A DNA stretch of 43,920 nt from an uncultured Bacteroidaceae bacterium (lineage in GTDB: Bacteria; Bacteroidota; Bacteroidia; Bacteroidales; P3), in the NCBI GenBank assembly GCA_964616965.1, contig CAZTVH010000002.1, positions 1-43,920 on the forward strand, given 5' to 3'. Made by a program: the position numbers and the translations under genes. Every line of letters begins with the position of its first letter. Position 1 is the stretch's first letter. Positions 3,009-42,551 of this stretch are shown here, in pieces. Below the pieces are notes generated by a model. It had not been told where the DNA came from and made no database searches. It was given only the letters and a program-made list of their open reading frames with translations.

Positions 3009-4082
3009 ATGAAAATGTCTCGTTTGTTTAGCATCGCACTTCTAGGTGTCGCTTTGGCAGTGACCCCAGTTTATGCTCAACGTGGCGGCGGTGGTGGCCG
3101 CAGTGGTGGCGGCGGTGGCCACAGCAGTGGAAGTGTCAGCAGCAGCCGCGGTGGCGGTGGCGGTTTCTCAAGCAGCAGCCGTAGCAGCGGCAGCAGCTAT
3201 TCTAGCAGCCGTAGCAGCAGTTCGAGCTACTCAGGCAGCCGTAGCAGTTCAAGCTATTCAGGCAGCCGCAGCAGTTCACCCAATATAAGCAGCAGCTCTC
3301 GTAGCAGTTCATCGTCGTCGTATTCTGGTTCCCGCTCGTCATCGTCCAGCTTTGGCGGACGCTCGGAAGGCGGTTCCGCCGTCTCACGCGGCAGCAGCCA
3401 CCAGTCGCGCACGGGCAGCGTTCCTGCCCAAATCCGCAGCCGTAATAACGCAGCCATGCGCGATGGAGAACGTGGTACGGGTGGTGCTGTTCGTGGCGAT
3501 GCCCGTCGTGGCGACACCCCTGCTGGGAGTAACGTCGGTAGCGGTCGCCCCCACGGTGTAGCACCCACTCCCAATGGTGGCTATGCCCGCCCCGGCAATC
3601 CCAACGGCCCTATGCCTCCTTCGCACCGTCCGATGCACCCCGCTCCCTACTTCATGCACCCCTGCCATCATCATATGGTGCACTGCCACAGACTTTACTG
3701 GGACCCATTCCCCCCGCGTCCCTGGTTCTGGCCCGGATTTTGGTTCTACTGCAACAACTACTGGTATGACTATCACGTTACCGATGTAGTGGTAGTGAGA
3801 GAATACGCCAGATCCACCTACAATGTCGACCTCATCACATACGCTATCAGTGGCGACTACATGTATGCCCTAATCAACGACCCCGACGGCCACACCTACT
3901 TACAAATCTACGACAAGAACGACAAACTGCTTGCCGAACAACAAGTGAGCCGCAAATACTGCAAGATGCAGATCGACCCCGAAAACGGTGGTTGCTGGAT
4001 TATGAAGAAACGCGACAAAGACCCGCTGCTGTTCTTCTACACCCCTGAAGGCCAACTGCTCATCTACGAAGCCGACAAATAG
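3009..4082 (+). CDS. Secreted protein of unknown function: signal peptide, Gly/Ser/Arg low-complexity region, His/Cys/Pro/aromatic segment, and a C-terminal globular domain of about 100 aa
   Basis: 357 aa. MKMSRLFSIALLGVALAVTPVYA|Q looks like a signal peptidase I signal. Its own promoter candidate lies upstream and a hairpin plus T-tract terminator lies downstream. I recognise no family. Confidence 0.7.
   Translation: MKMSRLFSIALLGVALAVTPVYAQRGGGGGRSGGGGGHSSGSVSSSRGGGGGFSSSSRSSGSSYSSSRSSSSSYSGSRSSSSYSGSRSSSPNISSSSRSSSSSSYSGSRSSSSSFGGRSEGGSAVSRGSSHQSRTGSVPAQIRSRNNAAMRDGERGTGGAVRGDARRGDTPAGSNVGSGRPHGVAPTPNGGYARPGNPNGPMPPSHRPMHPAPYFMHPCHHHMVHCHRLYWDPFPPRPWFWPGFWFYCNNYWYDYHVTDVVVVREYARSTYNVDLITYAISGDYMYALINDPDGHTYLQIYDKNDKLLAEQQVSRKYCKMQIDPENGGCWIMKKRDKDPLLFFYTPEGQLLIYEADK
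3082..3360 (+). repeat. Coding low-complexity / imperfect tandem repeats (GGC/AGC/CGT-rich; 27-30 nt units encoding SYSGSRSSS)
   Basis: agcagccgtagcagc recurs at about 3173, 3205 and 3233. The units agctactcaggcagccgtagcagttca and agctattcaggcagccgcagcagttca are adjacent. Confidence 0.8.
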
Positions 4083-4212: not shown

Positions 4213-5310
4213 CTATTTAACGATAAGTTCCAAGACCCTGTTTACGTCCTCTTCAGACAATTCGTGATGCATCGGAAGGCAGATGACTTCGTTTGCAATT
4301 CGCGTGGCAGTCGGTAGGTTTTCTGTGGCAGCACTCGGCAAGCCACGATAAGTGCTGAACGTACTGATAAGAGGATAGAAATATCGGCGGCTCATAATAC
4401 CTTGTTCCCGCATCTTGAAGAATAGCTCATCACGAGTCATGCCATACTCGTCAGCATTGACAAATATTGGGAAATAGCTATAGTTGTGCTTCACGCCTGG
4501 CATATCGTCAAAGAATCGAATTCCTTTCACTGGACGAAGAGCCTCACGGTAGCGTATTGCCACACGGTGGCGCGACTCAATAGCAGAATCAATCTGGCGG
4601 AGACACAGCAAACCAAAAACGGCCCTCACCTCGTCCATCTTGCTATTGATACCGGGAGCTATAACTTCCGTCTCACTTTCGAAACCAAAATTCTTGAGAT
4701 AGTCAATACGCTGTTTGGTCGATGGATCGTGCATTACCATAGCACCACCCTCTATCGTATTGAACACTTTGGTGGCATGGAAACTCAAAGTAGAAATGTC
4801 GCCATACTCTAAGATAGACTTCCCATCTACTTCGACACCGAAACAATGGGCAGCGTCGTATATCACTTTCAGCCCGTATTTGTCTGCAATTTGCTGGATA
4901 CGGACTATGTCGCACGGTTTCCCATAACAGTGAACGGGCATGATGGCAGTTGTTCGAGGGGTGATGGCAGCCTCAATCTTGTCGGGATCCATGCCGCAAT
5001 TGCTAGGGTCGATGTCAACGAAGACGGGTTTCAGACCATTCCACCAAATGCTATGGGTGGTGGCCACAAAGCTGTAGGGGGTCGTTATCACCTCACCACT
5101 AATTCTCAATGCCTGCAGAGCAGTGAGCAATGGTAGCGTACCGTTGGTGAAGAGGCTGATATACGGTACCTTGAGATAGGTGCAAAGAGCCGCTTCTAAT
5201 TGCTGGTGGAACTGCCCGTTGTTGGTAATCCACTTGCTCTCCCAAACCTTTTTCAACATCTGGGTGAACTCGTCCAAATCTGGCAGCAGAGGTGTGGTGA
5301 CGTTCATCAT
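4213..5310 (-). CDS. DegT/DnrJ/EryC1/StrS-family PLP-dependent sugar aminotransferase
   Basis: 365 aa. SFHATKVFNTIEGGAMV contains the PLP-lysine motif, and the family-typical N-terminus is WITNNGQFHQQLEAAL. Last gene of the locus. Confidence 0.85.
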   Translation of the reverse strand: MMNVTTPLLPDLDEFTQMLKKVWESKWITNNGQFHQQLEAALCTYLKVPYISLFTNGTLPLLTALQALRISGEVITTPYSFVATTHSIWWNGLKPVFVDIDPSNCGMDPDKIEAAITPRTTAIMPVHCYGKPCDIVRIQQIADKYGLKVIYDAAHCFGVEVDGKSILEYGDISTLSFHATKVFNTIEGGAMVMHDPSTKQRIDYLKNFGFESETEVIAPGINSKMDEVRAVFGLLCLRQIDSAIESRHRVAIRYREALRPVKGIRFFDDMPGVKHNYSYFPIFVNADEYGMTRDELFFKMREQGIMSRRYFYPLISTFSTYRGLPSAATENLPTATRIANEVICLPMHHELSEEDVNRVLELIVK

Positions 5311-5375
5311 AGGTTAATTTACTGAAGTTTGAGAAGTTTCGCTTTGGGACCATAGCCAATCTCTGACCTCCTCAC

Positions 5376-5417
5376 AACGTTCTGCTTCTGAGAGCGGAGA
5401 ACGACCTCAGCAGAGGT
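5376..5417. repeat. Partial or degenerate copy (copy 4) of the intergenic repeat family
   Basis: ctgcttctgagagcggagaacgacctcagcagagg resembles copy 2 plus strand (ccgctccctgaagcgga...gagaacgagcagag). Confidence 0.4.
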
Positions 5418-5591
5418 AGAAATAGGTATAGGCATGGGATTGTTTGTGTACAGACTCATTGAAAATACACAATTGCAATAATTTAGGGTGTCGCTCAAAA
5501 ATGCGCTTGCCAACCTATAGTCGTTAACCCTAACACATATACAAGCAGGCCAAACCTGCCAACATACTATCATTCAGTGTTAGGCCAAGGG

Positions 5592-8099
5592 CTACTTTCT
5601 CTTTCTCAATCTCCGGCCTGATTCGGTAGTTGATTTATTACCACCTTCTTCGTCGTCATCCTGGTTTACCGTCTCACTATAGCCGTAGCCATAGCCGTAG
5701 CCATAGCCATAACCATAGCCGTAACCATAGCCATAACCATAGCCGTAACCATAGTTGCGACCATAGATGGGCTGCTTTTCGTATTTCACATCATTCAGTA
5801 TGATGCACATGTTGGGGAAGGCACCGTCTTTGTAGAGACGCTCCACATCAAGCAACATTCGTTTGTCGAACTTTCTTGCACGGATAAGGAACACTGTGTG
5901 GTCGGCAACGTGTTTCACTATGTCGGTATCCACCACCATACCTGCAGGAGTACCGTCGAGAATGATATAGTCGTATTTGTCACGGAGATAGTTAATCAAA
6001 TTATCGAACAGAGAAGTACTCAACAACTCGGCAGGATTGGGCGGCAGCGGACCCGAAAAGAGAGAATCAACACCTGCAGCAATCACATCGTGCTGGATAA
6101 GGCTGTCGATATCAGACTCCTTTTGCGTAAGATAGTTCACAAGGCCGGGTTTTTTGCGAGAGTAGAATTTGCGTGTCAACGCGCCCTTTCGCAAATCTAG
6201 GTCTACCAACAGCACCTTCTTGCTTGCCAATCCGATACTGGCGGCAAGATTGCTAGTGGTGAAAGTTTTACCAGACCCGGGCACAAGAGATGAGAACAAC
6301 AAAATTTTAGCCTTACCTTGCTGGGTGGTACCCAAGAAGTCGATCTTTGCTCGCAAGTGTCTAAACGATTCGGCAATGCCGTCGTGTTCTTTCTCTGTTA
6401 TCACGATGTTACGGTCATCGTCATCTGGCAAAGCGGGAATTTCGGAGAGGAAGGGGATCGTGGTAGCCGATTCAATATCCGCATAAGTTTTCACCTGTGT
6501 GTCGAATAGTCTCTTCAGCAGATAGAAGGCCACCGGGACAAGTAGACCAATGATAGCACCGACAAAGGTCATGTGCGGGGTATTGGGCGACACTGGGACT
6601 TTGTTAGGCATTGCAGGATCGATAATCTTGGCATATCCCTCCAAAGAAGGTTTGCTTATCATCAGTTCCTCACGGCGGGTAAGCAGTGATACATACAACT
6701 CCTCTTTAATCTTCTGATTTCTCTCCAACTCGTCCAAATGCAAGCGCTGGATAGGCACGGCACGAACTCTTGCCGAGGCCTCGTTGGCGATATTGCGTTC
6801 GTTGACGATGCGCTGTTCCAAGGAAGATATGTAGCCCTCGGTCATGCTGATGAGGTCTTCGCGTTGTTGATTTTGGTTCTCAATGGCACGGGCAGCGACA
6901 GGGTTGTTCACTGTCCCCATCTCCTTATAGCGGGCCACGGTCTGAGCGTGGCTGTTGTACTTAGTCAGATAAGATGCCACAACGCCGTTAGAAACGGCAC
7001 CCATGGGCACCACCTCAGTACCGTCGCTAGCCTTGATGCTCGAGAGCAGGTCGCGAGCCATACTCAGCTCATTCTGCAGACGGGCAGCCTCATTGTCCGA
7101 CCGCAGGCTAGTGCTGACATACCCACTACCGAAAGCTCCAGATGCCATCACGTCCGAGCTGCTACGATATGCAGCAATGGCTGACTCTTGGGCACCCAAA
7201 TCACTACTAATAACGTTAATACGTTCATTAATATAATTATAGGTATCATTGATAATGCGTTTCTTGTCGTTTACTGCACCTTCGTTGTAAACGCGGATTA
7301 CCCCATTGATAAAGTCGGCACAACGCTGGGGAGAAGAGTCTTTCATATAGAGGTTCAGAATCGTATTGCGGTCGTCGTTGCGCTTCACCGTCAATCTGCC
7401 ACGGTAATATTCGGCAATGGACGACACATCTTGGTGGTCCACCCTGATTTCCTGCCCCACAGACCTATCCACAAAGGTCCATGTCTTGTGAACCGTCATT
7501 CGGCCCATCGGAGTCATCACCGGTTTGTCTAACGGAATCAGCAGAGCGTGATGATTCGGACGACGCAATAGTACATGGCCCTTATCCACAATCTTCAATG
7601 TTAAGTAATTAGGGAGCATAAAACCATTTGAGTCAAACTCCAATTCCACTGGCGAGATGGCATAGAGATTCTTTGTACGTTTCAAGAACCGGGTCTCAGT
7701 GCTATACATCACATTCAGTTTCAACTCTTCCACCACCTTTTGGATGGTCGATTTCGAAGTCAAAATCATCATCTCGTTGTTGATGGTACTGGAATAGAAC
7801 GGCTTGAGGCCCAAGGCATTCTTAATTGACATCTCTCGTGTATCGTCATCGCTGATGCCTAAACTATTGCCACTTCGGATTAGAATCTTCGCCTGACTAT
7901 AATAAACCTTGTCCTGTCGGCGTGCCACAAAGTTTGCAATCAAACCACCTATGACAGCGAAGATAATCAGCCAATGAATATTGCGGAGCAAAAGAAAAAT
8001 CAAATCCTTGATATGGAACGAAACAGACTGCTTCTCGTCAAGGAACGACAGATTAGTGTAGTTGGGATTTGTATTATTTGTATTGTTTGTATTGTCCAT
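5592..8099 (-). CDS. wzc: Polysaccharide co-polymerase / BY-kinase (Wzc-like, PCP-2a)
   Basis: 835 aa. Two TM segments (IHWLIIFAVIGGLIANFV and MTFVGAIIGLLVPVAFYLL) flank a long periplasmic region. Walker A is VPGSGKTFTTSNLA, A' is LLVDLDLRKG, B is YIILDGTP. A Tyr-rich C-terminal tail is present. Confidence 0.9.
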   Translation of the reverse strand: MDNTNNTNNTNPNYTNLSFLDEKQSVSFHIKDLIFLLLRNIHWLIIFAVIGGLIANFVARRQDKVYYSQAKILIRSGNSLGISDDDTREMSIKNALGLKPFYSSTINNEMMILTSKSTIQKVVEELKLNVMYSTETRFLKRTKNLYAISPVELEFDSNGFMLPNYLTLKIVDKGHVLLRRPNHHALLIPLDKPVMTPMGRMTVHKTWTFVDRSVGQEIRVDHQDVSSIAEYYRGRLTVKRNDDRNTILNLYMKDSSPQRCADFINGVIRVYNEGAVNDKKRIINDTYNYINERINVISSDLGAQESAIAAYRSSSDVMASGAFGSGYVSTSLRSDNEAARLQNELSMARDLLSSIKASDGTEVVPMGAVSNGVVASYLTKYNSHAQTVARYKEMGTVNNPVAARAIENQNQQREDLISMTEGYISSLEQRIVNERNIANEASARVRAVPIQRLHLDELERNQKIKEELYVSLLTRREELMISKPSLEGYAKIIDPAMPNKVPVSPNTPHMTFVGAIIGLLVPVAFYLLKRLFDTQVKTYADIESATTIPFLSEIPALPDDDDRNIVITEKEHDGIAESFRHLRAKIDFLGTTQQGKAKILLFSSLVPGSGKTFTTSNLAASIGLASKKVLLVDLDLRKGALTRKFYSRKKPGLVNYLTQKESDIDSLIQHDVIAAGVDSLFSGPLPPNPAELLSTSLFDNLINYLRDKYDYIILDGTPAGMVVDTDIVKHVADHTVFLIRARKFDKRMLLDVERLYKDGAFPNMCIILNDVKYEKQPIYGRNYGYGYGYGYGYGYGYGYGYGYGYGYSETVNQDDDEEGGNKSTTESGRRLRKRK
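5679..5753 (-). repeat. Hexanucleotide repeat encoding (YG)12Y in the Wzc tail
   Basis: 25 consecutive codons alternate TAT/TAC and GGC/GGT (plus strand ata/gta and gcc/acc). Confidence 0.95.
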
Positions 8100-12302: not shown

Positions 12303-12832
12303 TGTCTGTATTTTATTATTCGAGCAGGATTTCCTGCAACTACTGCGTATGGTGGCACGTCGTGCGTGACAACACTGCACGCCCCTATTACGGCACCATC
12401 ACCGATTGTTTTAACATTGGATAGAATTGTTACACGTTCTGCAATCCACACATCGTTCCCTATTGTCAGACTCGTTTTTGGCCGTGAACCTTGTTGGCCA
12501 ATCGACTGCAACTTATCCATAAAGATATGTCCACCCCCGACGACATGCACATCCCTTGCTATCATGGTATTATTGCCTACAACTAAAGAAGAGTTCGTGA
12601 TTCTGAAGTTGTCGCCAAGTCCTGACTTGTTCCCTATCGAAATATCGTTTTTGCCAAAATACACTCGCCTCTCGATATTAATCCATTTCCCTGAGCTGAC
12701 AAACAAAACCTTACATATCCTACCCCGTATTCTACGACACAGCTCACCCATCACAGGGAACCGGCTGGTCGGTAGAAATTGGGCAAAGGTATAGTACAAT
12801 ATGAATGCTATCTTCTTCATATTATTGCTCAT
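12299..12832 (-). CDS. Left-handed beta-helix (hexapeptide-repeat) sugar acyl/acetyltransferase
   Basis: 177 aa. Hexapeptide repeats and C-terminal [31 protein letters not shown]. Confidence 0.8.
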
Positions 12833-13841: not shown

Positions 13842-14321
13842 TTAATTGAATGTCCTAATAACTTTGGCTGGCGACCCAACAGCCACACTATAGGGCGGTA
13901 TATCGTGCGTGACGACGCTACCAGCCCCTATTACGGCACCTTCGCCAATTGTCACACCTGGCATGAGGATGGCACCGATACCGATATGGGCACCGTCCTT
14001 GATGACCACGCGCCCTACCTTGAACGGACAGTCGATGACATACATGCCGGGTCTATAATACGAGAGGTCACGCTGGTGGCATAGTATCATCACTCCTTGC
14101 GTGACAAATACACCCTTGCCTATTTCTATCAACTCGGGGTTATGGTCGTCAAGATAGGCACCGCGGGAGATATGGGATCCCTTTCCCACTTTAACCCCCC
14201 GCAAACGGTGGCAGGCCACCGTGACAACGTACGGGAAGGTGAACATTGTAAGTATAGACAGTAGTCTAATCCACACTCCGCGAATAATCGACAGAGGCGT
14301 TCGTTGTTCAAATTTGGGCAT
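13842..14321 (-). CDS. Left-handed beta-helix acyl/acetyltransferase (second copy)
   Basis: 159 aa. IGIGAILMPGVTIGEGAVIGAGSVVTHDIPPYSVAVGSPAKVI. The N-terminal hydrophobic segment suggests membrane association. Confidence 0.75.
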   Translation of the reverse strand: MPKFEQRTPLSIIRGVWIRLLSILTMFTFPYVVTVACHRLRGVKVGKGSHISRGAYLDDHNPELIEIGKGVFVTQGVMILCHQRDLSYYRPGMYVIDCPFKVGRVVIKDGAHIGIGAILMPGVTIGEGAVIGAGSVVTHDIPPYSVAVGSPAKVIRTFN

Positions 14322-16696: not shown

Positions 16697-17710
16697 CTAT
16701 TTCAGATTGTTCCAATACCATTCGCAGGCCTGCTCGAACCCACTCAGCGCGTCGTATTTGGGGCGGTAGCCCAGCACCTGCTGCGCCTTAGCGATAGAAG
16801 CCTGAGAGTGAGGAATGTCGCCCGGTCGGTTTGTCCTATACACGGGCTCTATGTCGGCAATACCGGCATCGTACCGCGCCAGATTGCTACGCAGGCAGGC
16901 AAACAGCTGATTGAGCGTAGTGTTGCCTCCGTATGCCACATTGAACACCATGTCGATAGGGGCGTTTGCAGGCAAGGTCTTATTATATAGTTCTGCCTGC
17001 TGGAAAAGGGTTTCGGAAGGGACGCTGGCGGCAAGCTCGTTGGCCTGGATAACATTGTCGATATAGGTAAAGTCGCGCGAGTAGCTGCCGTCGCCGTTGA
17101 TAAAAGGCTGCTGATGGTTGATAAGTGCCTTCACCCAAAGAGGTATCACAGCCGCATAGGCCCCGTTAGGGTCCTGTCGACGACCAAAAACGTTGAAATA
17201 GCGCAACCCAACGGTCTCTATTCCGTAGAGATTGGAAAAGACATTGGCATACAGTTCGTTCACATACTTGGTGATAGCGTATGGCGAAAGCGGACGCCCG
17301 ATATTATGTTCGGTCTTGGGCAACAGCTTGCTATCCCCGTAAGTAGACGAACTGGCCGCATACACAAAACGGTGCACACCCGCATCGCGTGCCGCCACCA
17401 ACATGTTGAGGAACCCATCGATATTGTTGCTGTTCGTGTTAATCGGGTCATTGATGCTTCGTGGCACACTGCCCAAAGCTGCCTCATGCAGCACCACATA
17501 GGCACCCTCCACCACTCTGCGACAAGTGTCCAAATCACGGATATCACCCTCCACAAAATGGAAATTGGGCATAGACAGCAGGGGCTCTATGTTGCGGCGA
17601 AAGCCTGTCGACAAATTGTCCAAACAGGTCACTTCATACCCCTTCGACACAAAATGCTCGCACAAGTTAGAACCAATAAACCCGGCTCCGCCAGTAATCG
17701 TAATTTTCAT
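16697..17710 (-). CDS. SDR-family UDP-HexNAc / UDP-HexNAcA C4-epimerase (WbpP/TviC-like)
   Basis: 337 aa. Motifs TGGAGFIGSNLCEHF, FVEGDIRD, AASSSTYGD and YAITKYVNE (YxxxK). Confidence 0.8.
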   Translation of the reverse strand: MKITITGGAGFIGSNLCEHFVSKGYEVTCLDNLSTGFRRNIEPLLSMPNFHFVEGDIRDLDTCRRVVEGAYVVLHEAALGSVPRSINDPINTNSNNIDGFLNMLVAARDAGVHRFVYAASSSTYGDSKLLPKTEHNIGRPLSPYAITKYVNELYANVFSNLYGIETVGLRYFNVFGRRQDPNGAYAAVIPLWVKALINHQQPFINGDGSYSRDFTYIDNVIQANELAASVPSETLFQQAELYNKTLPANAPIDMVFNVAYGGNTTLNQLFACLRSNLARYDAGIADIEPVYRTNRPGDIPHSQASIAKAQQVLGYRPKYDALSGFEQACEWYWNNLK

Positions 17711-17907
17711 CCTTTCTTATCTATTATTCCTGTAATAACCTATTAAAAACCTATCATCCCTTCCACATCCATTGAACTGTGATTGGTGCATTATGAATTG
17801 TGAATTGACCAATAAAAACGGTACTCTTTAAACTAAAAAGTAAAAACTAAAAACTAAAACTTTTTCAATTTTTAATCTTCAATTTTCATTTTTCATTCCT
17901 CAAAGCT

Positions 17908-18028
17908 TCTTCCGTTCTCTGCTCCTTATCCGCTCGTACTCTGCTCCATATCCGCTCCAAGAAGCGGAAAACAACCTTAGAAGATGTGAGAATCATGAAG
18001 ATACAGTAGGAAGCCGCTTGAAACGGCA
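17908..18028 (+). repeat. Intergenic repeat family, copy 1 (orientation A)
   Basis: Contains TCCGTTCTC, CTCTGCTC, the hairpin tccgct-ccaaga-agcgga (17951-17968) and GTAGGAAGC. Ungapped, 49 of 65 positions are identical to the reverse complement of copy 2 (hand alignment). Confidence 0.7.
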
Positions 18029-18177
18029 TGAACCGATAAACGCTAGAAAAAATGAGTGTATGGGTTGGCTGAGAAGAAAGCCTATAGCCGAGGATAGGGG
18101 TCGGGAAGCTTTATAGTGGGCTGTACGTCAGCTTTTACTTGTCGAACTATAGAAATTAAGAGTGGGCAGCGGCAAGG

Positions 18178-19137
18178 CTATCTCCCTTGGAACTCGATGA
18201 TACGCCTGTCGAGGATGCTGCCTTTCTCGAAATTGTGACAGCCACGGAGTACGTCGTTCTCAAGAGGGCGGTCTTCGATAAGGAAGTCGACATATTTAAT
18301 AAATTCGGCACTAAGTGTCTCTGTGGCAGTTTTCCAGAAAAGCGAAGGGGTGTGGTCGACAACATAGTGTGTGATACCGTCTATCGTGTATGTGGGGTGC
18401 TCGATAGAAGTGGGGACACTGGTTTCGACACCGCCATTGCGGTCGCACGAGACATCGATGATGAGGGCACCCCGCTTCATGCGTTGTAGGTCGCGGCGAT
18501 AGATGATGTGGTCGCGTCGCGAGGTGTCCCAAAGAATGGCATTGACCACTACGTCGAAGTCGCCCAGCTCAAGCTGGAAAAGCCGTTCGGTCTTGCGGTC
18601 GTACTGCCTAACCTCGGCCCCCATATAGTTGAGTGTCTTGATAGCCCCACGGGCTATGTTGCCACGTCCTAGCACGGCCGCACGGGTGTTGTAGGGGAAG
18701 ATGCCGTGGCACATGTAGGCGTGGAAGACAGCGGCCTCGCCAGCTATCTCGTTGTTGCGCCAAAAGCTGTGGCGGCCATTTTCGTACATGTCCTCCCAGG
18801 CGAAGGAAGTGAGCCTGCGGGAGATGATTTTGTCGGTGATGTCGCGATTCTGCACTGCATGCACCCACCCAAAAATGGTTTGTCCGTCCAACGACTCTAA
18901 GTATTCGGCATCGCCAATTTTGGGGTCGGCTACAATGTCCATTTGGAGTATCTGGTCGCGAGTGGCGACATTGACACCTCCCCGCCTGTAGTCGTCGTCG
19001 CTGTAGCCCAGCACGTCGCCGTAGCCCGTTTCAATCCATATCTGGCCGGGATGGCGCAACTGCGCTATGTGGCCGGGAATCAGCGTGCGACGCCTTTCGT
19101 TTTCCTTGTGGGATATGGGCAGACCAACTGTTTTCAT
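18178..19137 (-). CDS. Alanine dehydrogenase/PNT-family enzyme resembling N5-(carboxyethyl)ornithine synthase (opine-type synthase)
   Basis: 319 aa. N-terminus MKTVGLPISHKENERRRTLIP and NAD motif VLGRGNIARGAIKTL. Length and architecture fit CEOS (about 313 aa) rather than AlaDH (about 370 aa). Confidence 0.55.
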   Translation of the reverse strand: MKTVGLPISHKENERRRTLIPGHIAQLRHPGQIWIETGYGDVLGYSDDDYRRGGVNVATRDQILQMDIVADPKIGDAEYLESLDGQTIFGWVHAVQNRDITDKIISRRLTSFAWEDMYENGRHSFWRNNEIAGEAAVFHAYMCHGIFPYNTRAAVLGRGNIARGAIKTLNYMGAEVRQYDRKTERLFQLELGDFDVVVNAILWDTSRRDHIIYRRDLQRMKRGALIIDVSCDRNGGVETSVPTSIEHPTYTIDGITHYVVDHTPSLFWKTATETLSAEFIKYVDFLIEDRPLENDVLRGCHNFEKGSILDRRIIEFQGR

Positions 19138-19197
19138 AGCTATATGTTGTGATTGGTGAATAGTGTATTGACAAATGAAATTGGCAGTCCTTTCAAT

Positions 19198-22555: not shown

Positions 22556-23430
22556 AGTTTCACGCCATTCAGATAATAGCTGTCTATCGGCTTTCTTCCA
22601 ATACCTTTGAGTTTGCGATAGCGGTAGTTGGTTTCCCCATCGGTCAACACGGGCACAATGCCCTTTCTTCTAAGTAGCTGCTGCGTTGCCTCTGTACGCC
22701 TGCCCCAAGTGTAGGCAAAGAAAGGAACAAATCTGGGATGCCTGCCCAATATTTCCATGCACTTGTCTACAGACTCTTCAAACTCCTCAATACTCAACTT
22801 CTTAGCATCGGTGTGTTCGTAGCCGTGCATTCCCACTGACACCAAGTTGCCAGACAATTCCCACAACTGGTCGTGGGTGATGTATTGCGGGGCCTCGGCA
22901 TAGCCCTCCCTCTTACTTTTCCCGTCAAGATATTTAGGGTTGATAAAGAGGGTCACTGGTATTTGTTCTTTTTCAAGAAACGGCATGACACCGAGTATCG
23001 ACGCATCTCCGTCATCGCATGTCAACACCGCATACGGTTGTCTCCTGCACCACGGCCTACGCAATCGTTGGTAAGCATCCTGTAGTGATATGAACCTGTA
23101 TTTCGTCTTCAGCGACAGAATAAAGTTCTCAAATTCTTTTGTCTGAGACCAGTCAACCCGCTTGTTTCTACGCTCGTCGAAAGTATCCGACACAGCATGA
23201 AACACAAGCACCTCTATCGGTGCGTAGCACAACTTGTCCCACCATCGGGATATATTCTTAACTGTAAGCCGATTCACATTGAAAAAATAGATAATTGATA
23301 ATAGGCTGGCGCAGTCATTCGTCAATTCACTATTCACCAATTTCAGAAAATCCTCTTCATGTTGTGCCAAAAAGTCTTGTGGCCTCGTGTAACGAAGAGC
23401 TGCTCCAACGCGTAACGCAACGCCTTCCAT
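22552..23430 (-). CDS. Polysaccharide deacetylase (NodB homology, CE4)
   Basis: LTCDDGDAS (TFDDG-type motif 1) and HGYEH. ATG 23430 would overlap the upstream gene by 88 nt. TTG 23340 or GTG 23337, just after that stop, are plausible alternative starts. Confidence 0.75.
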   Translation of the reverse strand: MEGVALRVGAALRYTRPQDFLAQHEEDFLKLVNSELTNDCASLLSIIYFFNVNRLTVKNISRWWDKLCYAPIEVLVFHAVSDTFDERRNKRVDWSQTKEFENFILSLKTKYRFISLQDAYQRLRRPWCRRQPYAVLTCDDGDASILGVMPFLEKEQIPVTLFINPKYLDGKSKREGYAEAPQYITHDQLWELSGNLVSVGMHGYEHTDAKKLSIEEFEESVDKCMEILGRHPRFVPFFAYTWGRRTEATQQLLRRKGIVPVLTDGETNYRYRKLKGIGRKPIDSYYLNGVKL

Positions 23431-31061: not shown

Positions 31062-32003
31062 CTATCTTTCTGCCCGCATAGGGTTGTGTAAAAAATCGTT
31101 ATACGCCAAACGGATGCCCTCGTCAAGTTCGGTCTTGTAGGTCCAACCCAATGCCGTAGCCTTGCTCACATCGAGCAGTTTGCGCGGAGTACCATTGGGG
31201 CGGCTCGCATCCCATCGTATCGTGCCCCCATATCCCACTATATGTGCCACCAGCTCGGCAAGTGCCTTGATGGTGATTTCTTTGCCGGTGCCGGCATTGA
31301 CGGTCTCGTCGCCACTATAGTGGTTCATCAGGAAGACACAGAGATTGGCAAGGTCATCCACATAGAGAAACTCGCGCAGCGGCGACCCGTCGCCCCAGCA
31401 CACCACCTCTTCTACTCCCTGAACCTTAGCCTCGTGGAAACGGCGTATCATGGCGGGGAGCACATGGCTGTGTTCGGGATGGTAATTGTCGTTAGGGCCA
31501 TATAGGTTTGTGGGCATGACGCTTATGTAGTCGGTACCATACTGACGGTTGAGGTATTCGCAGTATTTCAGCCCCGATATCTTTGCGAGGGCGTAGGCCT
31601 CGTTTGTCTTTTCCAACTCGGAGGTCAGCAGGCAGCTCTCCGGCATAGGCTGTGGAGCCAGACGGGGATAGATGCAGCTCGACCCCAAGAACTCAAGTTT
31701 CTTGCACCCGTTGCGCCATGCCGCATGGATGACGTTCATCTCCAACACCATATTCTCATACATGAAGTCGGCCAACGCACTCTGGTTGGCAACGATGCCG
31801 CCCACCTTGGCAGCGGCGAGAAACACATACTCAGGTTTTTCTTCCTCGAAGAATTGCTCCACCGCCTCTTGCCGTGTCAGGTCCAGCTCTGCGTGTGTGC
31901 GCGTTACGAGGTTGCTGTAGCCCTGCCGCTGGAGTTCTCTCACTATGGCAGAACCCACCATGCCCCGGTGGCCAGCCACATATATCTTTGAGTCTTGGTT
32001 CAT
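31062..32003 (-). CDS. fcl: GDP-L-fucose synthase (GDP-4-keto-6-deoxymannose 3,5-epimerase/4-reductase)
   Basis: 313 aa. [26 protein letters not shown] and GSSCIYP. Confidence 0.92.
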
Positions 32004-32100
32004 CTCTTATCAGTTTTCCCTACTTGGGGATTGTCTCCCATGATTGATTGGTGCATTTGGAGCTGGAAGTGTTCTATTACTGAAGTCTGACACACATTAT

Positions 32101-32108
32101 CAAACGTA
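32101..32108 (-). promoter_or_regulatory. Candidate internal -7 box (minus strand TACGTTTG) upstream of fcl
   Basis: Exact TAnnTTTG match, 98 nt upstream of ATG 32003 inside the 372-nt gap. A CTTG lies 17 nt upstream as a weak -33. Confidence 0.35.
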
Positions 32109-32200
32109 CCCGTCTTCAAGCACAACAAGCTTAATTCACCGCATTTTATCTTATTCCAAACAAGCCTCTACAGGTGATTATTACTGCCTTGACTGATTTC

Positions 32201-32322
32201 TACCGCTTCTTGCCGCTTCCTACCACATTCTGCCGATTTCCACCCCTTTTAATGTCGTTACCCGCTCCCTGAAGCGGACATTGAGCAGAGAACGAGCAGA
32301 GATGATGTGGAGAACGGAGGGA
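32201..32322 (-). repeat. Intergenic repeat family, copy 2 (orientation B, inverted relative to copies 1 and 3)
   Basis: Its reverse complement aligns without gaps to copy 1 with identical internal spacing (40 nt before the hairpin, 38 nt between the hairpin and GTAGGAAGC). Hairpin ccgct-ccctga-agcgg at 32262-32277. Confidence 0.7.
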
Positions 32323-32375
32323 GGAGGTGTACGGTTGGCTAGAGTTAAGAAAAGGTAATGGTCAACTTTTGATGA

Positions 32376-33464
32376 TTACTTCACTATGCCTTTTTCTAGG
32401 TATTCGGCTAGGTTGTAGCGCACCTTGGCGGCCGCATCATCGGAGGCCACCTTGGCCATGTCGCTCTCTACCATGAGCCGCACGAGCTGATGGAAAGGGG
32501 TTTTAGAGGGGTTCCAGCCCAGCAGCCGCTTGGCCTTAGAGGCATCGCCCAAGAGGTTCACCACGTCGGTGGGACGGTAGAAGTCGGGGCTGACCTCGAC
32601 CAGCACGCGGCCGGTGGCGCAGTCGATGCCCTTTTCATCCACCCCTTCGCCTTCCCAGCGCAACTCGATGCCGACATAGTGGAACGCCAGCTGGCAGAAC
32701 TCCCGCACGCTATGCTGCTCGCCTGTGGCGATGACAAAGTCGTCGGGCCTGTCGTGCTGGAGTATCATCCACATGCACTCGACATAGTCTTTGGCATAAC
32801 CCCAGTCGCGCAACGAGGAGAGGTTGCCCAGTTGCAGCCGCTGCTGTTTGCCCTGACGGATGCGCGCCGCTGCCAATGTTATCTTGCGCGTGACGAAGGT
32901 CTCGCCTCGGCGCTCGCTCTCGTGGTTGAAGAGGATGCCGTTGCAGCAGAACATGTTGTAGGCTTCGCGGTATTCTTTGACAATCCAATACCCGTATAGT
33001 TTCGCCACAGCGTAAGGGCTGTATGGGTAAAAGGGGGTCTCTTCGTTCTGAGGCACAGACACAACGCGTCCGTACAGTTCAGAGGTGCTGGCCTGATAGA
33101 TGCGGCAGCTATGCTCCAGCCCGCACTGGCGCACCGCCTCTAGGATGCGCAGCACGCCGGTGGCATCGACATTGGCCGTGTATTCGGGAGCATCGAAACT
33201 GACCTGCACATGGCTCTGTGCAGCGAGGTTGTAAATCTCGTCGGGACGGGTTTTCGCCACCAGCTGGATGATACTCAGCGTGTCGCCCATATCGCCATAG
33301 TGAAGGTGGAATTGCTCGTGCCCTTCGAGGTGGGCTATCCGTTCGCGGTAGTCTACGGACGAACGTCGGATGATACCATGCACTTCGTAGCCTTTGGCCA
33401 AGAGAAATTCGGCAAGGTAGCTGCCATCCTGTCCGGTGATACCTGTTATCAGAGCAGTTCTCAT
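32376..33464 (-). CDS. gmd: GDP-mannose 4,6-dehydratase
   Basis: 362 aa. [26 protein letters not shown] and YAVAKLY. Confidence 0.95.
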
Positions 33465-34658: not shown

Positions 34659-34715
34659 TTCGAATTGAGAGTTGAGAATTGAAAAATGAGGATTGAAAAT
34701 CAGCTGCTATGCCGG

Positions 34716-38349: not shown

Positions 38350-39537
38350 CTAGTGCGAATGCTTATGATGGAAAAATATATTCCCCACAATGCCCCAGAA
38401 ATATTTCCAATCGGTCCTGAAGGGGTGCTTCAGATAAGCCTCCACATACCGCCGCTCCGACTCTTGGATGCCCTCCAACGTCTCGGGCTGCTCCTTCTCA
38501 TAATAGAGCGGCGGTAGTAGGCCGGGCTTGGTCTGTATTCTCAACTGCTGCATCTCAGGCGTATACAGGCTGAAAAACTGTTTCGACAAAGGCCTCACAC
38601 CCACCAGCTTCATCTCCCCCTTCAACAAATTCACAACCATCGGCAACTCGTCGAGCCACGTCTTGCGCAAAAACGCTCCCATCGTATTCACTCGGTAGTC
38701 GTGATAGAACTTACCCGTCTTATCCAACCGCCGGTGCTGGTACACATATTCCTGCAGATACTCACTATACGAATACATCGTGCGGAACTTATACACCGTT
38801 ATAATCTTTCCGTTCTTGCCCACCCTCCGCAACTTGGCTATCGGCGACGAGCTGGGAACCCCTTCCCGTATAGGCTCCTTGGCCTTGCGGGCTATCACGC
38901 GAAACTCCCCGTGTGCCGTATTCTCATACACCACCTCGAAACCCGCATGATACAGCCGCCCCAATATCTCCACGCGGTGGAACGTGCGGTTGCGCCCCTT
39001 GCTGATGGCAAAATAGATATTCTTCAACCCCGCCACCTTCGGAAACACCCGGTGCCACAGATAGTGGAAACCATAATAAACCCTGTTTATCCCTTTCGGA
39101 TAGCGGCTGTAGATAACCGCCTTCTTCACCGACGACGTGCGGCAACAACACACCAAATACCCCCCCTGCGTCAAATTCTCGTTGGCGTTGAACAAAAACT
39201 TGTCAAGCTCATAAATCGTGTGCAGCGGACGCTTCACAAAAATAGCCTCATACAGCCCACCCTCTGCCTTACACTGCGGAAGCGGGTTCCCACCGTTGTT
39301 CTTCATCCCCCACAGCAGCGTGGTGGGGGCAAACTCGTCGTGATGGTCTGCAAACCAACGGTACACCTGCTTAATCGGCTCCTGCTCCACATGCTCAAAG
39401 ACCCTGCGCACATCCGCATTCTCAATGTCCTCGGCCTTCAAATCGTCACACCCCTCGCTCCCCTGCTCGACAAAGTTGCCGGCAGGAAAGTACATTTTCC
39501 CCTTTACAGGATCCAACGGAAACAGCGGTTTTCTCAT
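38350..39537 (-). CDS. Polyprenyl-phosphate glycosyl-1-phosphate transferase (bacterial sugar transferase domain) fused to an N-terminal domain of about 230 aa with no obvious TM helix
   Basis: C-terminal RRVGKNGKIITVYKFRTM and LRKTWLDELPMVVNLLKGEMKLVGVRP. I see no hydrophobic stretch of at least 18 aa in the N-terminal part. Confidence 0.75.
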   Translation of the reverse strand: MRKPLFPLDPVKGKMYFPAGNFVEQGSEGCDDLKAEDIENADVRRVFEHVEQEPIKQVYRWFADHHDEFAPTTLLWGMKNNGGNPLPQCKAEGGLYEAIFVKRPLHTIYELDKFLFNANENLTQGGYLVCCCRTSSVKKAVIYSRYPKGINRVYYGFHYLWHRVFPKVAGLKNIYFAISKGRNRTFHRVEILGRLYHAGFEVVYENTAHGEFRVIARKAKEPIREGVPSSSPIAKLRRVGKNGKIITVYKFRTMYSYSEYLQEYVYQHRRLDKTGKFYHDYRVNTMGAFLRKTWLDELPMVVNLLKGEMKLVGVRPLSKQFFSLYTPEMQQLRIQTKPGLLPPLYYEKEQPETLEGIQESERRYVEAYLKHPFRTDWKYFWGIVGNIFFHHKHSH

Positions 39538-40031
39538 TCCGTAATCGTTTCTAAAAACTCAGGCGGTATATGCATAGTCGCAACAGCTGCCACACCCCTC
39601 ACACTCACCACCAGCCGCCTGTCCTTCTTAATTCGCTTGATATAACCTTCGGCACCCTTGAACACCCCCTCCGTCACCCTCACACGGTCGCCTTTATGAT
39701 ATTCGGGCCTGTCCTCGCCCAGATAGCACAATCCCTGCTGCCCCGCCGTGCACACGAAGATAAACACCTCCATCTCACGGTCCGGAATTGCCGAGGGCTT
39801 GTGCGTCAGCGGGTCGCGATAAACCCACAGCTTGTCATGATAATCGTTCTCAAACTGCGCCACATAGCCATTCGTGGCCTTCACAAACAACAGCGATGCT
39901 ATCATACTCGGAATAAAGAAGTCCACCCCGTCCACCGCCAGTTGCTCCCTCAGCGGTGTCATCCTGTTGTAATACACCTTCATCGCATACCATCGCGCAA
40001 CCTCTGGTTTTTCCTCCTTATTCATCATCAA
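39534..40031 (-). CDS. upxY: UpxY-family (NusG-like) locus-specific transcription antiterminator
   Basis: 165 aa. NGN-like WYAMKVYYNRMTPLREQL and KOW GDRVRVTEGVFKGAEGYIKRI. First gene of the locus, with a 4-nt overlap onto the next gene. Confidence 0.85.
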   Translation of the reverse strand: MMMNKEEKPEVARWYAMKVYYNRMTPLREQLAVDGVDFFIPSMIASLLFVKATNGYVAQFENDYHDKLWVYRDPLTHKPSAIPDREMEVFIFVCTAGQQGLCYLGEDRPEYHKGDRVRVTEGVFKGAEGYIKRIKKDRRLVVSVRGVAAVATMHIPPEFLETITE

Positions 40032-40327
40032 TCACTCCTTACCTATACTGCCTGTCTTGAACTATTCATTTCCTTTCTCCGCCTCACCAGCCTTCCCCTC
40101 GCTCGCCGTGCCCACACTCCCCCACACTTTACGCCTCGGCAAACACACCCAATCCACCCTCGCCCACAGGCACAATTCTCCTCCTCCCCCTATGCAGCGG
40201 CACGAGGCTTCTGGATGATTCATGGATTTAAATAACCCACTTTTACGCCCACCCCTATCCAAGGGCGGTAACGTAATCAACCTTTGCTGTGTATATTATA
40301 AAAAACATACAGCCCATTATCAGTTTG
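40032..40327 (-). promoter_or_regulatory. Long G-rich 5' leader of the glycan operon
   Basis: Lies between the -7 box candidate and the upxY ATG. In plus-strand line 40081-40140 I count 33 C against 9 G, so the transcript is G-rich and C-poor. Confidence 0.5.
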
Positions 40328-40335
40328 CAAATATA
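40328..40335 (-). promoter_or_regulatory. Candidate -7 box (minus strand TATATTTG) of the upxY operon promoter
   Basis: Exact TAnnTTTG match inside the only AT-rich patch of the 670-nt gap. The upstream GTTG/TTTC is only a weak -33. Confidence 0.5.
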
Positions 40336-40495
40336 CGACTTTTTATAGAAACAACGAGCATTTTTTTTAAAAACTCACTTTTCTTTCCTACTTTGCCACT
40401 ACCGTTTGGCCTGCTCGCCCTGCCGCAGCCCCGCCCTTATCAGACCATGCCACCCGCCCTACACCCTTTTCCCCACCTCTACCCAATGCTGCCGC

Positions 40496-40612
40496 CTCTT
40501 CCCGCTCTCTACTGCATGCTACCAATTCCCACTCCTTCAGAGGTTGTTATCCGCACCCTGATGCGGAGACAAAACGAAGAAGAAGCTGACATGGAGCGGA
40601 TAACAGAGGGGG
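40496..40612 (+). repeat. Intergenic repeat family, copy 3 (orientation A)
   Basis: TTCCCGCTCTCT aligns to TTCCGTTCTCT of copy 1. Hairpin tccgca-ccctga-tgcgga at 40550-40567, where the T/A pair of the other copies is replaced by A/T. There is a 10-nt insertion before the hairpin. Confidence 0.55.
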
Positions 40613-40646
40613 CTAGGCGGGTGGCGTGGTGCCGGCGACTAAACGT

Positions 40647-40680
40647 TAAAAAGGGGCACCGCGCAAGTGCGGATGCCCCT
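40647..40680 (-). terminator. Rho-independent terminator of the M49-like lipoprotein gene
   Basis: Stem aggggcaccgc (40652-40662) pairs with gcgg-a-tgcccct (40669-40680), loop gcaagt. On the minus strand it is followed by TTTTT. It lies 21 nt after the stop. Confidence 0.8.
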
Positions 40681-40701
40681 AAAGGTCACGACAGGTGTCG
40701 T

Positions 40702-42463: not shown

Positions 42464-42551
42464 GGAAAGGTGCTCGAGTGGTTGAAGAGGCCCGCCTGGA
42501 AAGCGAGTAAGCGTTAAAAGCGCTTCAAGGGTTCGAATCCCTTCCTTTCCG
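42464..42551 (+). tRNA. tRNA-Ser (anticodon GGA), type II with long variable arm
   Basis: Acceptor GGAAAGG/CCTTTCC, D-loop with GG, anticodon loop CTGGAAA, variable arm AAGCG-TTAAAAG-CGCTT, T-arm AAGGG-TTCGAAT-CCCTT, discriminator G, no encoded CCA. One C-A mismatch in the anticodon stem (CCCGC/GCGAG). Confidence 0.9.

What the first reader, a model, noticed from the sequence alone, without database searches (positions are those of the whole stretch)
17908..18028. Roughly 120-nt repeat family with a conserved hairpin occupies the four largest intergenic gaps of the locus
Copies lie at 17908-18028, 32201-32322 and 40496-40612, with a partial copy at 5376-5417. These are the four largest gaps of the locus: the 467-, 372- and 281-nt internal gaps and the 670-nt region upstream of upxY. 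Shared blocks are TCCGTTCTC, CTCTGCTC, a 5-6 bp hairpin with a 6-nt loop, and GTAGGAAGC. Copy 1 aligned to the reverse complement of copy 2 gives 49 of 65 ungapped identities by hand, with identical block spacing. The hairpin shows a compensatory change: tccgcT...Agcgga in copies 1 and 2 against tccgcA...Tgcgga in copy 3. Copies 2 and 3 share the loop CCCTGA. Restriction to module boundaries suggests a punctuation or regulatory role, or a small mobile or recombinogenic element that marks where cassettes were joined.
Basis: seen in the sequence. Interest (0 to 1): 0.65.

Follow-up and report, generated by a model that had tools for sequence, protein, structure and literature searches.

The report
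Insertion-polymorphic intergenic repeat in polysaccharide locus
The four big gaps of this rumen Bacteroidales polysaccharide operon hold copies of one non-coding repeat, two decayed short-repeat arrays converging on a small palindrome, and three of the copies are insertions absent from close relatives, so it behaves like a small mobile or duplicative element and not like a marker of where gene cassettes were joined.

Summary
Three full copies of about 180-205 nt (17882-18080 +, 32150-32342 -, 40438-40642 -) and one shortened copy (5347-5430 +) are homologous far above shuffled background. They lie only in the four largest gaps.

Each copy has a left arm with 11/22-nt periodicity, a 6-bp palindrome, a conserved GCGG-NN-AAC-R-AC spacer, and a right arm with 10/20-nt periodicity around a CGGTA-like core.

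In syntenic loci of relatives, the flanking genes at three sites are adjacent or overlapping: gmd/fcl, ceo-like/epimerase and wzc/degT. Those copies therefore sit in lineage-specific 280-470-nt insertions.

Only the site upstream of the upxY promoter carries related elements in other lineages. Some are pristine tandem arrays, for example (CCTTATCCGCT)x4, hairpin, (CGGTAAAATG)x6. Two further lineages lack the element there but keep the promoter and leader.

Metagenomes that hold this strain contain several more partial copies in other contexts.

The copies show no coding signal, no intrinsic terminator and no Rfam match, and nothing beyond the palindrome has structural support.

Best reading: a new MITE/REPIN/BrickBuilt-like composite intergenic repeat. 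The mobilising mechanism and any regulatory effect are unproven. The cassette-junction idea is refuted. Interest is moderate.

The parts
17882..18080 (+). Copy c1, full length, inverted relative to operon transcription. Left arm 17905-17957 (22-nt unit x2, 11-nt sub-period), palindrome TCCGCT-CCAAGA-AGCGGA 17951-17968, right arm about 17969-18050, outer block GTGTATGGGTTGGCT 18056-18078.
   Evidence: nhmmer E 7e-53 and 1e-49; TRF 17913-17957, period 22, 91%; autocorrelation at lag 22 = 0.65 in the left arm and at lag 10 = 0.41 in the right arm.
32150..32342 (-). Copy c2, full length, same direction as the operon. Palindrome at 32261-32278. In element orientation the left arm is 32279-32329 and the right arm 32151-32260.
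   Evidence: nhmmer E 2e-55 and 5e-51; right-arm lag-10 autocorrelation 0.45, p 0.004.
32004..32375 (-). The roughly 370-nt insertion between gmd (32376-33464) and fcl (31062-32003) that carries c2.
   Evidence: gmd and fcl are 17 nt apart in L041 and overlap by 4 nt in L042, L204-L219 and L223-L232. The blastn synteny break is at window 31994/32377.
32101..32108 (-). TAcgTTTG, a match to the Bacteroidetes -7 promoter motif TAnnTTTG, preceded by TTG about 20 nt upstream. It lies about 95 nt upstream of the fcl start. Possible internal promoter, motif match only.
   Evidence: the DNA search: in the four gaps only this site and the upxY promoter match on the sense strand. The motif consensus is from my own knowledge.
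40438..40642 (-). Copy c3, full length, same direction as the operon. Palindrome TCCGCA-CCCTGA-TGCGGA 40550-40567. Outer inverted repeat 40444-40467 / 40607-40630 (24 nt, 79% complementary).
   Evidence: nhmmer E 2e-46 and 5e-50; inverted repeat from the repeat finder.
40328..40335 (-). upxY promoter -7 box TAtaTTTG, invariant in all relatives. It places c3 in the non-transcribed spacer upstream of the promoter.
40650..40685 (-). Intrinsic terminator of the upstream M49 peptidase gene (GGGGCA...TGCCCC followed by a T run). It bounds the spacer that holds c3.
   Evidence: Sequence; inner stem found by the terminator scan; conserved in L041, L042 and L219.
5347..5430 (+). Copy c4, shortened, inverted relative to the operon. 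Palindrome TCTGCT-TCTGAG-AGCGGA 5381-5398, two or three right-arm units, then a block that aligns with the outer right block of c1.
   Evidence: nhmmer E 6e-6 (independent model) and 3e-15; alignment A6.
5311..5591 (-). The 281-nt insertion between wzc-like (5592-8099) and degT-like (4213-5310) that carries c4.
   Evidence: The two genes overlap in L043 and L046.
17711..18177 (-). The 467-nt gap between the N5-(carboxyethyl)ornithine-synthase-like gene (18178-19137) and the epimerase gene (16697-17710) that carries c1.
   Evidence: The gap is 78 nt in L046-L050. It is 511 nt of unrelated sequence in L043-L045.

Best explanation
The copies belong to a previously undescribed, lineage-restricted, non-coding composite repeat.

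Anatomy: two convergent arrays of short helically spaced units. The left arm has about 11-nt units of the type CTCCTTATCCG. The right arm has about 10-nt units of the type GAAGCGGTAG, which is roughly the reverse complement of the left unit. The arms meet at a 6-bp palindrome formed by the innermost inverted units. In some copies a weak outer inverted repeat is present.

History: its resident site is the non-transcribed spacer between the M49-peptidase terminator and the upxY promoter. There, related lineages carry fresher versions with perfect tandem arrays. In the window's lineage it was additionally copied, in either orientation, into three intergenic points of the operon, together with or followed by other filler DNA. 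This split genes that are adjacent or translationally coupled in relatives.

Mechanism I commit to: it is a small non-autonomous mobile or duplicative element in the manner of MITEs, REPINs or the P. gingivalis BrickBuilt element. The repeated CGGTA-type units and the palindrome would be the protein- or hairpin-recognition features, and the arrays evolve by slippage and homogenisation.

Shown: homology, anatomy, empty sites, the patchy but syntenic upxY-upstream occurrence, and extra copies in metagenomes.

Inferred: mobilisation in trans, tolerance of the in-operon copies because UpxY-modified polymerase reads through, and any promoter contribution (c2).
For: - Homology and restriction to the four gaps.
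- Periodic arm structure: TRF and autocorrelation.
- Fresher relatives at the upxY-upstream site:
  - L219-L222: (CCTTATCCGCT)x4.1, TCCGCTC-TGG-GAGCGGA, (CGGTAAAATG)x5.7, E 2e-18.
  - L041: (GAATCGGTAA)x6.1.
  - L042: (CATCTTACCG)x9, an 11-bp perfect palindrome, then (GAACGGCAAAC)x3.
- All six versions align in one register (A6).
- Empty sites in colinear relatives: c2, c1, c4.
- The element is absent from the upxY-upstream spacer in two lineages that keep the promoter and leader: L204-L218 and L223-L232.
- Both orientations and a shortened copy occur.
- Other copies in other contexts, 80-89% alike over 35-92 nt, recur in four independent metagenomes at depths similar to the window strain.
- Not coding: mismatches by codon phase are 19/19/20.
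- No Rfam family at E<=5 in the gaps.
- No terminators in the elements.
- A Bacteroidales precedent exists for a minisatellite-bearing intergenic MITE with promoter activity: BrickBuilt (PMC4596501).
Against: - No target-site duplication could be defined.
- Terminal inverted repeats are convincing only in c3 (24 nt, 79%).
- The copies are only about 60-65% identical to each other.
- The inserted segments (280-470 nt) are larger than the shared core, and the extra DNA is unrelated between sites.
- No transposase or RAYT partner is known, and the genome is not available.
- Across roughly 510 kb of related polysaccharide loci (366 kb; a further 148 kb) the element occurs only at the upxY-upstream site. 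This also fits a site-bound functional element copied locally by recombination.
- The strict core pattern found no Bacteroidota hit in 185,579 species genomes.
- The metagenome and viral pattern scans returned only chance hits.
- Genome-wide dispersal is therefore supported only by short Logan-contig matches.
Confidence: 0.5

Rival explanations
1. Functional upstream control module. The convergent, helically phased CGGTA/TATCCG arrays would be a binding array for an unknown regulator or nucleoid protein, or intrinsically curved DNA, that tunes UpxY-type polysaccharide promoters. The three in-operon copies would be duplications that created new internal control points.
For: - Same site and same architecture in four lineages despite complete turnover of unit sequence, with the CGGTA core kept every 10 bp.
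- 10-11-bp periodicity.
- Strongly phased AA/TT in L219 and L042, p<0.001.
- No other occurrence in roughly 510 kb of related loci.
- c2 is followed by a TTG...TAcgTTTG promoter-like motif in the right direction.
- One other metagenomic copy is followed by an A8-TG run like that preceding the upxY promoter (by eye).
Against: - Two lineages (25 loci) keep the promoter and leader but lack the element.
- The window copies are degenerate, with weak A-tract phasing, p 0.05-0.24.
- c1 and c4 are inverted and have no consensus promoter nearby.
- The region downstream of c2 is not homologous to upxY promoter regions, z<2.
- No candidate binding protein is known.
Confidence: 0.22
2. Structured RNA element, such as a cis-acting processing or stability site or a small RNA, whose conserved hairpin acts in the transcript.
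For: - The hairpin is 97% paired across 6 versions, with 2 compensatory pairs; 13 of 500 shuffles do as well.
- All four non-Watson-Crick pairs are G-U on the element strand.
- One metatranscriptome contig covers 31993-32278.
Against: - c3 and its orthologues lie upstream of the conserved promoter and downstream of a terminator.
- The copies are in both orientations relative to transcription.
- Folding z-scores are -0.2 to -1.5.
- RNAalifold covariation term is -0.44 kcal/mol.
- No Rfam hit and no terminator tails.
- The palindrome is explained by the head-to-head junction of the arrays.
- The RNA data are very shallow contigs without strand information.
Confidence: 0.08
3. Scars or recombination sites marking where gene cassettes of the locus were joined.
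For: The copies lie in the largest gaps. c1 and c2 are in inverted orientation 14 kb apart.
Against: - Gene order is colinear across all three internal sites in relatives that lack the element.
- c2 lies inside the gmd-fcl pair.
- No strand-changing or skipping joints appear at the copies in four metagenomes.
Confidence: 0.04
4. Chance similarity of low-complexity, compositionally skewed intergenic DNA.
For: The arms are pyrimidine- or purine-rich and internally repetitive.
Against: - Gapless 173-nt alignment, E 2e-19.
- Alignment scores lie 20-35 sd above shuffles.
- c4 and the L219, L041 and L042 elements were detected independently by a profile.
- None was found in 1.37 Mb of unrelated loci.
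Confidence: 0.01

Closest known systems
BrickBuilt (and MITEPgRS/MITE464) of Porphyromonas gingivalis: MITEs that enclose a minisatellite (PMC4596501)
   Same: Both occur in Bacteroidales hosts and are strictly intergenic. Both are a composite of tandem short repeats plus flanking parts, with partial or degenerate copies, a narrow host range and presence/absence differences between strains. Both are suspected to influence neighbouring transcription.
   Different: - BrickBuilt has one direct array of 23-nt units between non-repetitive leader and tail regions, with IS5-type 12-nt TIRs (GAGACCTTTGCA). That TIR is absent from the gaps here.
- The units here are 10-11 nt and arranged as two convergent arrays around a palindrome.
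- There is no sequence similarity.
- No partner IS is identified here.
REP / BIME / REPIN elements mobilised by RAYT transposases (Enterobacteria, Pseudomonas)
   Same: Both are short GC-rich extragenic palindromes in mosaic arrays, in both orientations, often between convergent or co-directional genes. GTAG tetranucleotides occur in the units (CGGTAG). By eye the left unit CCTTATCCGC resembles the E. coli REP arm CCTTATCCGGC; this comparison is from my own memory and was not tested.
   Different: REPs are present in tens to hundreds of near-identical copies per genome and are tied to a RAYT gene. Here copy number is unknown, the copies are 60-65% alike, the arrays are direct repeats and not alternating palindromes, and no RAYT could be sought.
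Correia/NEMIS elements of Neisseria and BOX elements of Streptococcus pneumoniae
   Same: All are 100-200-nt modular intergenic insertions that can sit inside operons, can fold, and can bring promoter or processing signals.
   Different: Those families have defined TIRs and TSDs (Correia) or boxA-B-C modules and high copy numbers. None of these features was met here.
Invertible promoter inverted repeats of Bacteroides capsule loci
   Same: Both are located upstream of upxY-led polysaccharide operons.
   Different: Here the promoter is not flanked by the repeats. The element lies wholly upstream of the promoter, and no inversion joints are seen in four metagenomes.

Membership tests
MITE (non-autonomous transposon) | Terminal inverted repeats at both ends | tested here: inconclusive
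   c3 has a 24-nt outer inverted repeat, 79% complementary (z about 2.2). c2 and c1 carry only one recognisable outer block each. The arms of c1 and c2 are no more complementary than shuffles.
MITE (non-autonomous transposon) | Target-site duplication flanking the insertion | tested here: not met
   No direct repeat is seen at the borders of the c2, c1 or c4 insertions when aligned with empty sites. The borders are blurred by additional unrelated inserted DNA.
MITE (non-autonomous transposon) | Presence/absence polymorphism at orthologous sites | tested here: met
   Empty sites exist for c1, c2 and c4 in colinear relatives.
MITE (non-autonomous transposon) | Multiple dispersed copies in one genome and a cognate transposase with matching ends | not testable with these tools
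   The window is a whole metagenomic contig. There is only indirect evidence: about 5-8 other partial copies per metagenome. Collection scans gave chance hits only.
BrickBuilt / MITEPgRS | IS5-like TIR GAGACCTTTGCA and a 23-nt (or 41-nt) internal minisatellite | tested here: not met
   With up to 2 mismatches the TIR occurs only at 3010 and 13053, not in any gap, and below chance expectation. The periods here are 10, 11 and 22 nt.
REP/REPIN-RAYT | High-copy 20-40-nt palindrome with a GTAG head, and a RAYT gene flanked by REPs | not testable with these tools
   A palindrome is present and GTAG occurs in the units. Copy number and RAYT need the genome.
Any Rfam RNA family | Covariance-model match | tested here: not met
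   Only tRNA-Ser passes gathering thresholds. Nothing in the four gaps matches at E<=5.
Intrinsic terminator | GC-rich hairpin followed by a T run | tested here: not met
   None of the element hairpins is called. The only call near the elements is the M49 gene terminator.
Bacteroides invertible-promoter system | Inverted repeats flanking the promoter, with both orientations present in populations | tested here: not met
   The promoter at 40328-40335 lies outside the element. No strand-changing joints appear in X1-X4.
Protein-coding gene or pseudogene | Codon-position bias of substitutions | tested here: not met
   Mismatches by phase are 19/19/20, 21/20/20 and 18/19/18. One frame is open in all three full copies, but this is consistent with the pyrimidine-rich composition.

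The most novel reading that the evidence does not exclude
The convergent, helically phased CGGTA/TATCCG arrays around a palindrome are a dedicated upstream control module of UpxY-type polysaccharide promoters in a clade of rumen Bacteroidales. The module would be a binding array for an unknown regulator, or tunable curved DNA whose repeat number sets promoter strength. This lineage would have re-used the module by copying it into its operon to create new internal control points, uncoupling gmd/fcl and wzc/degT.
Probability: 0.15. Interest if true: 0.65.

Novelty: new variant of a known kind. Interest (0 to 1): 0.42.

Why it matters
Polysaccharide loci of gut and rumen Bacteroidales are among the most variable parts of their genomes. 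That variation is usually described as gene-cassette exchange and promoter inversion. This case shows a third source: a small composite repeat that turns over rapidly upstream of the upxY promoter and can be inserted between tightly coupled genes of a UpxY-controlled operon.

If the arrays influence transcription, repeat number or presence would be a simple heritable tuning knob for surface-glycan expression. If they are purely selfish, they are a useful marker of strain history. They would also be the first such element described for rumen Prevotella-like bacteria. Small mobile repeats are barely catalogued in Bacteroidales beyond P. gingivalis.

Tried and rejected
1. Long-palindrome or extended RNA structure. 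The arm complementarity of c1 and c2 equals shuffles, fold z-scores are -0.2 to -1.5, and the RNAalifold covariation term is -0.44. Only the 6-bp palindrome is supported.

2. Small ORF. One frame is open in all three full copies, but substitutions show no codon phase. Rejected.

3. The c2 insertion as a duplicate of the whole upxY promoter module. The downstream regions are not alike, z<2. Rejected.

4. Collection scans for more copies:
   - Genome contigs with TCCGCNNCANGRNGCGGNNAACRAC gave 40 single hits in unrelated phyla, at about the chance expectation I estimated.
   - Viral contigs with a looser pattern gave 46 hits, none real by profile.
   - Metagenome contigs with GCGGANANKGAGCAGAGNACG gave 100 hits (capped), none real. 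Many appear to be one conserved sequence of a human-gut organism, judging by identical scores and contig names; this was not checked. The pattern choice wasted that scan.

5. blastn of c2 against plasmids and phages found no match.

6. Extending the contig through exact-protein look-ups of the end genes and of gmd found nothing on record.

7. RNA evidence. Metatranscriptome contigs are 2-7x deep and unstranded, so they are uninformative.

8. Curved-DNA test. AA/TT phasing is strong in L219 and L042 but not significant in the window copies.

9. Fcl homologues with long N-termini (P0001-P0004) were checked as possible read-through of a c2-like insert. They contain internal duplications, probably assembly artefacts.

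Full report
**Context**

The window is a polysaccharide biosynthesis locus transcribed almost entirely on the minus strand, from 42378 down to 4213 (ORF map).
- It starts with a UpxY-family antiterminator at 39534-40031 (NF033644, 111.7 bits against a cutoff of 100).
- It continues through a sugar transferase, an ABC-2 transporter, glf, gmd, fcl and many glycosyltransferases.
- It ends with Wza-like and Wzc-like export genes and a DegT aminotransferase.
- Public runs that hold the sequence are bovine gut/rumen metagenomes.
- The protein collection lists the window itself as a whole 43,920-nt contig. No more of the same genome is therefore available.

**Observation check**

The repeat family is real.
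- blastn between the four gaps aligns c1 with reverse-complemented c2 over 173 nt without gaps (65% identity, E 2e-19), and c1 with c3 over 125 nt (E 6e-12).
- Local alignment scores are 54, 51 and 36, against 10.6 +/- 1.3 for shuffles.
- A profile built from c1-c3 finds the partial fourth copy independently (5381-5428, E 6e-6) and nothing else in 43.9 kb.
- A later 6-sequence profile gives the extents 17882-18080 (+), 32150-32342 (-), 40438-40642 (-) and 5347-5430 (+).
- The four gaps are indeed the four largest in the locus.
- c2 and c3 point with the operon. c1 and c4 are inverted.

**Anatomy**

In element orientation each copy has five parts.
- A pyrimidine-rich left arm with 11/22-nt periodicity. 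In c1 this is a 22-nt unit x2 at 91% (TRF), with lag-22 autocorrelation 0.65.
- A 6-bp palindrome with a 6-nt loop.
- A conserved spacer, GCGG-NN-AAC-R-AC.
- A purine-rich right arm with 10/20-nt periodicity around a CGGTA/CGGCA core.
- In some copies, an outer block GTGTAKGGG.TGG.

The left units (CTCCTTATCCG) are approximately the reverse complement of the right units (CGGTAGGAAG). The whole element is therefore two convergent arrays, and the palindrome is simply the junction of the innermost inverted units. This also explains the weak antisense self-hits of the profile.

Beyond that palindrome no structure is supported.
- Arm complementarity equals shuffles for c1 and c2.
- RNA fold z-scores are -0.2 to -1.5.
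- The RNAalifold covariation term is -0.44 kcal/mol.

Across six versions the palindrome is 97% paired, with two compensatory pairs; 13 of 500 shuffles do as well.

The other tests were negative.
- Substitutions show no codon phase.
- No hairpin has a T tail.
- Rfam has nothing in the gaps, even at E<=5.

**Relatives: the decisive evidence**

Protein look-ups recovered syntenic loci at about 70-84% nucleotide identity.

*Site c2.*
- gmd and fcl are 17 nt apart in L041.
- They overlap by 4 nt in L042, L204-L219 and L223-L232.
- The alignment shows a clean insertion of about 370 nt in the window, between the gmd stop and the fcl start.

*Site c1.*
- The two flanking genes are 78 nt apart in L046-L050.
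- L043-L045 carry 511 nt of unrelated sequence at the same place.

*Site c4.*
- wzc and degT overlap in L043 and L046.

Gene order is colinear on both sides of each site. These are insertions into an existing operon, not cassette junctions.

*Site c3 is different.*
- The spacer between the M49 peptidase terminator and the invariant upxY promoter (GTCGTATATTTGCAAA; -7 box at 40328-40335) carries related elements in three other lineages.
- L219-L222 have a pristine version: (CCTTATCCGCT)x4.1, TCCGCTC-TGG-GAGCGGA, (CGGTAAAATG)x5.7. The profile E-value is 2e-18.
- L041 has (GAATCGGTAA)x6.1, in register with the right arm of c3.
- L042 has (CATCTTACCG)x9, an 11-bp perfect palindrome, and (GAACGGCAAAC)x3.
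- Two further lineages, L204-L218 and L223-L232 (25 loci), lack the element but keep the terminator, promoter and leader.
- The profile finds no other copy in the roughly 510 kb of related loci searched (366 kb; a further 148 kb), and none in 1.37 Mb of unrelated loci.

**Further copies**

I laid the Logan contigs of four metagenomes on the gaps at 80% likeness.
- Besides the contig that spans each gap, about five other contigs per run match 35-92 nt of c2 at 83-89% and then diverge.
- One other contig matches the c3 palindrome region, and in X4 one matches c4.
- The same flanks recur in several runs, at depths similar to the window strain.
- Their flanks again show TTACCGATTC-type units and TCCGC hairpins.

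More family members therefore exist, probably in the same genome, but their contexts cannot be read. Pattern scans of the genome, viral and metagenome collections returned only chance hits. blastn against plasmids and phages found nothing.

**Interpretation**

The data best fit a small non-coding composite repeat that is resident upstream of the upxY promoter. It evolves there by slippage and homogenisation, so units are alike within a lineage and different between lineages. In this lineage it has been copied into three more intergenic positions.

This is the behaviour of MITE, REPIN or BrickBuilt-type elements. BrickBuilt of P. gingivalis is the nearest described analogue: a minisatellite inside an intergenic MITE with promoter activity (PMC4596501).

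Membership in any of these families is not established.
- The BrickBuilt TIR is absent.
- Only c3 has a fair outer inverted repeat.
- No target-site duplication is visible.
- The partner enzyme cannot be sought without the genome.

The main rival is that the arrays are a functional upstream module, either a binding array or curved DNA.
- In its favour: conserved site and architecture, and strong A-tract phasing in L219 and L042.
- Against it: loss in two lineages, degenerate window copies, and mixed orientation.

An RNA role is unlikely because c3 and its orthologues lie outside the transcript. The in-operon copies carry no terminators. Their tolerance inside a UpxY-controlled operon, and a possible internal promoter after c2 (TAcgTTTG at 32101-32108), are inferences.

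**Verdict**

The element is a new variant of a known kind, of moderate interest.

Noticed in passing
window 40251-40266 (-), within the conserved upxY 5' leader about 40100-40310: The leader downstream of the upxY promoter is strongly conserved in all lineages examined. It contains a 4-bp hairpin with an invariant loop TTGGATAG and compensatory stem changes: GCCC/GGGT in the window, GCTC/GAGC in L041, GCTC/GAGT in L204, GTCC/GGAC in L223. A second conserved block, GAATCATCCA, follows. This is a candidate recognition element for UpxY-dependent antitermination.
   Followed up: partly
window 17823-17902 and 34662-34700: Heptamer simple repeats, (AAACTAA)n, (TTTTCAA)n and (GAATTGA)n, lie in intergenic DNA. 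In four rumen metagenomes, stretch 17823-17902 is covered at depths of hundreds to thousands by hundreds of different contigs. This is a separate, ubiquitous low-complexity intergenic motif of this community.
   Followed up: partly
window 17778-17808, 19148-19178, and inverted at 23315-23341: A second short repeat, about ATTGGTGAATAGTGTATTGACAAATGA, lies shortly upstream of gene starts. The 19152-19178 and 23315-23341 arms are 93% complementary. Metagenome depth over 17775-17806 is 3-25 times that of the flanks, so it too is multi-copy.
   Followed up: no
L043 9488-9998 (also L044, L045): At the site where the window has c1, these relatives carry 511 nt of unrelated sequence with several GC hairpins, while L046-L050 have 78 nt. 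This intergenic point is a hotspot that has accepted different inserts in different lineages.
   Followed up: partly
window 40340-40457 and 40040-40200 (-); same places in L041 and L042: Long G-rich/purine-rich tracts (GGNGG-type) lie between the element and the promoter, and between the leader and the upxY start. They are lineage-specific in sequence but recur in position. They are absent in L204-type loci.
   Followed up: no
window 5679-5754 (-), 3' end of the wzc-like gene 5592-8099: A 12-nt tandem repeat x6.3 encodes a C-terminal (Y-G)n tyrosine-rich tail of the Wzc-like tyrosine kinase. The tail region does not align with the relatives L043 and L046.
   Followed up: no
window 3009-4082 (+): A 357-aa ORF with 12-30-nt tandem repeats encoding a Gly/Ser-rich N-terminal region has no Pfam or NCBIfam match.
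   Followed up: no
window 12348-12409 and 13891-13952: A 62-nt direct repeat at 79% identity lies inside two ORFs on the minus strand, 11079-12380/12299-12832 and 13842-14321. They are probably paralogous gene segments; in relatives the gene at the second position is a hexapeptide-repeat acetyltransferase.
   Followed up: no
window 42464-42551 (+): A tRNA-Ser(GGA) gene lies between the M49 peptidase gene and a GT2 gene at the edge of the locus.
   Followed up: yes
proteins P0001-P0004 (Fcl homologues in the public collection): The top-scoring Fcl homologues are 375-424 aa because they contain internal exact duplications of 60-110 residues. These are probably assembly artefacts of the source metagenomes and not real variants.
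   Followed up: yes
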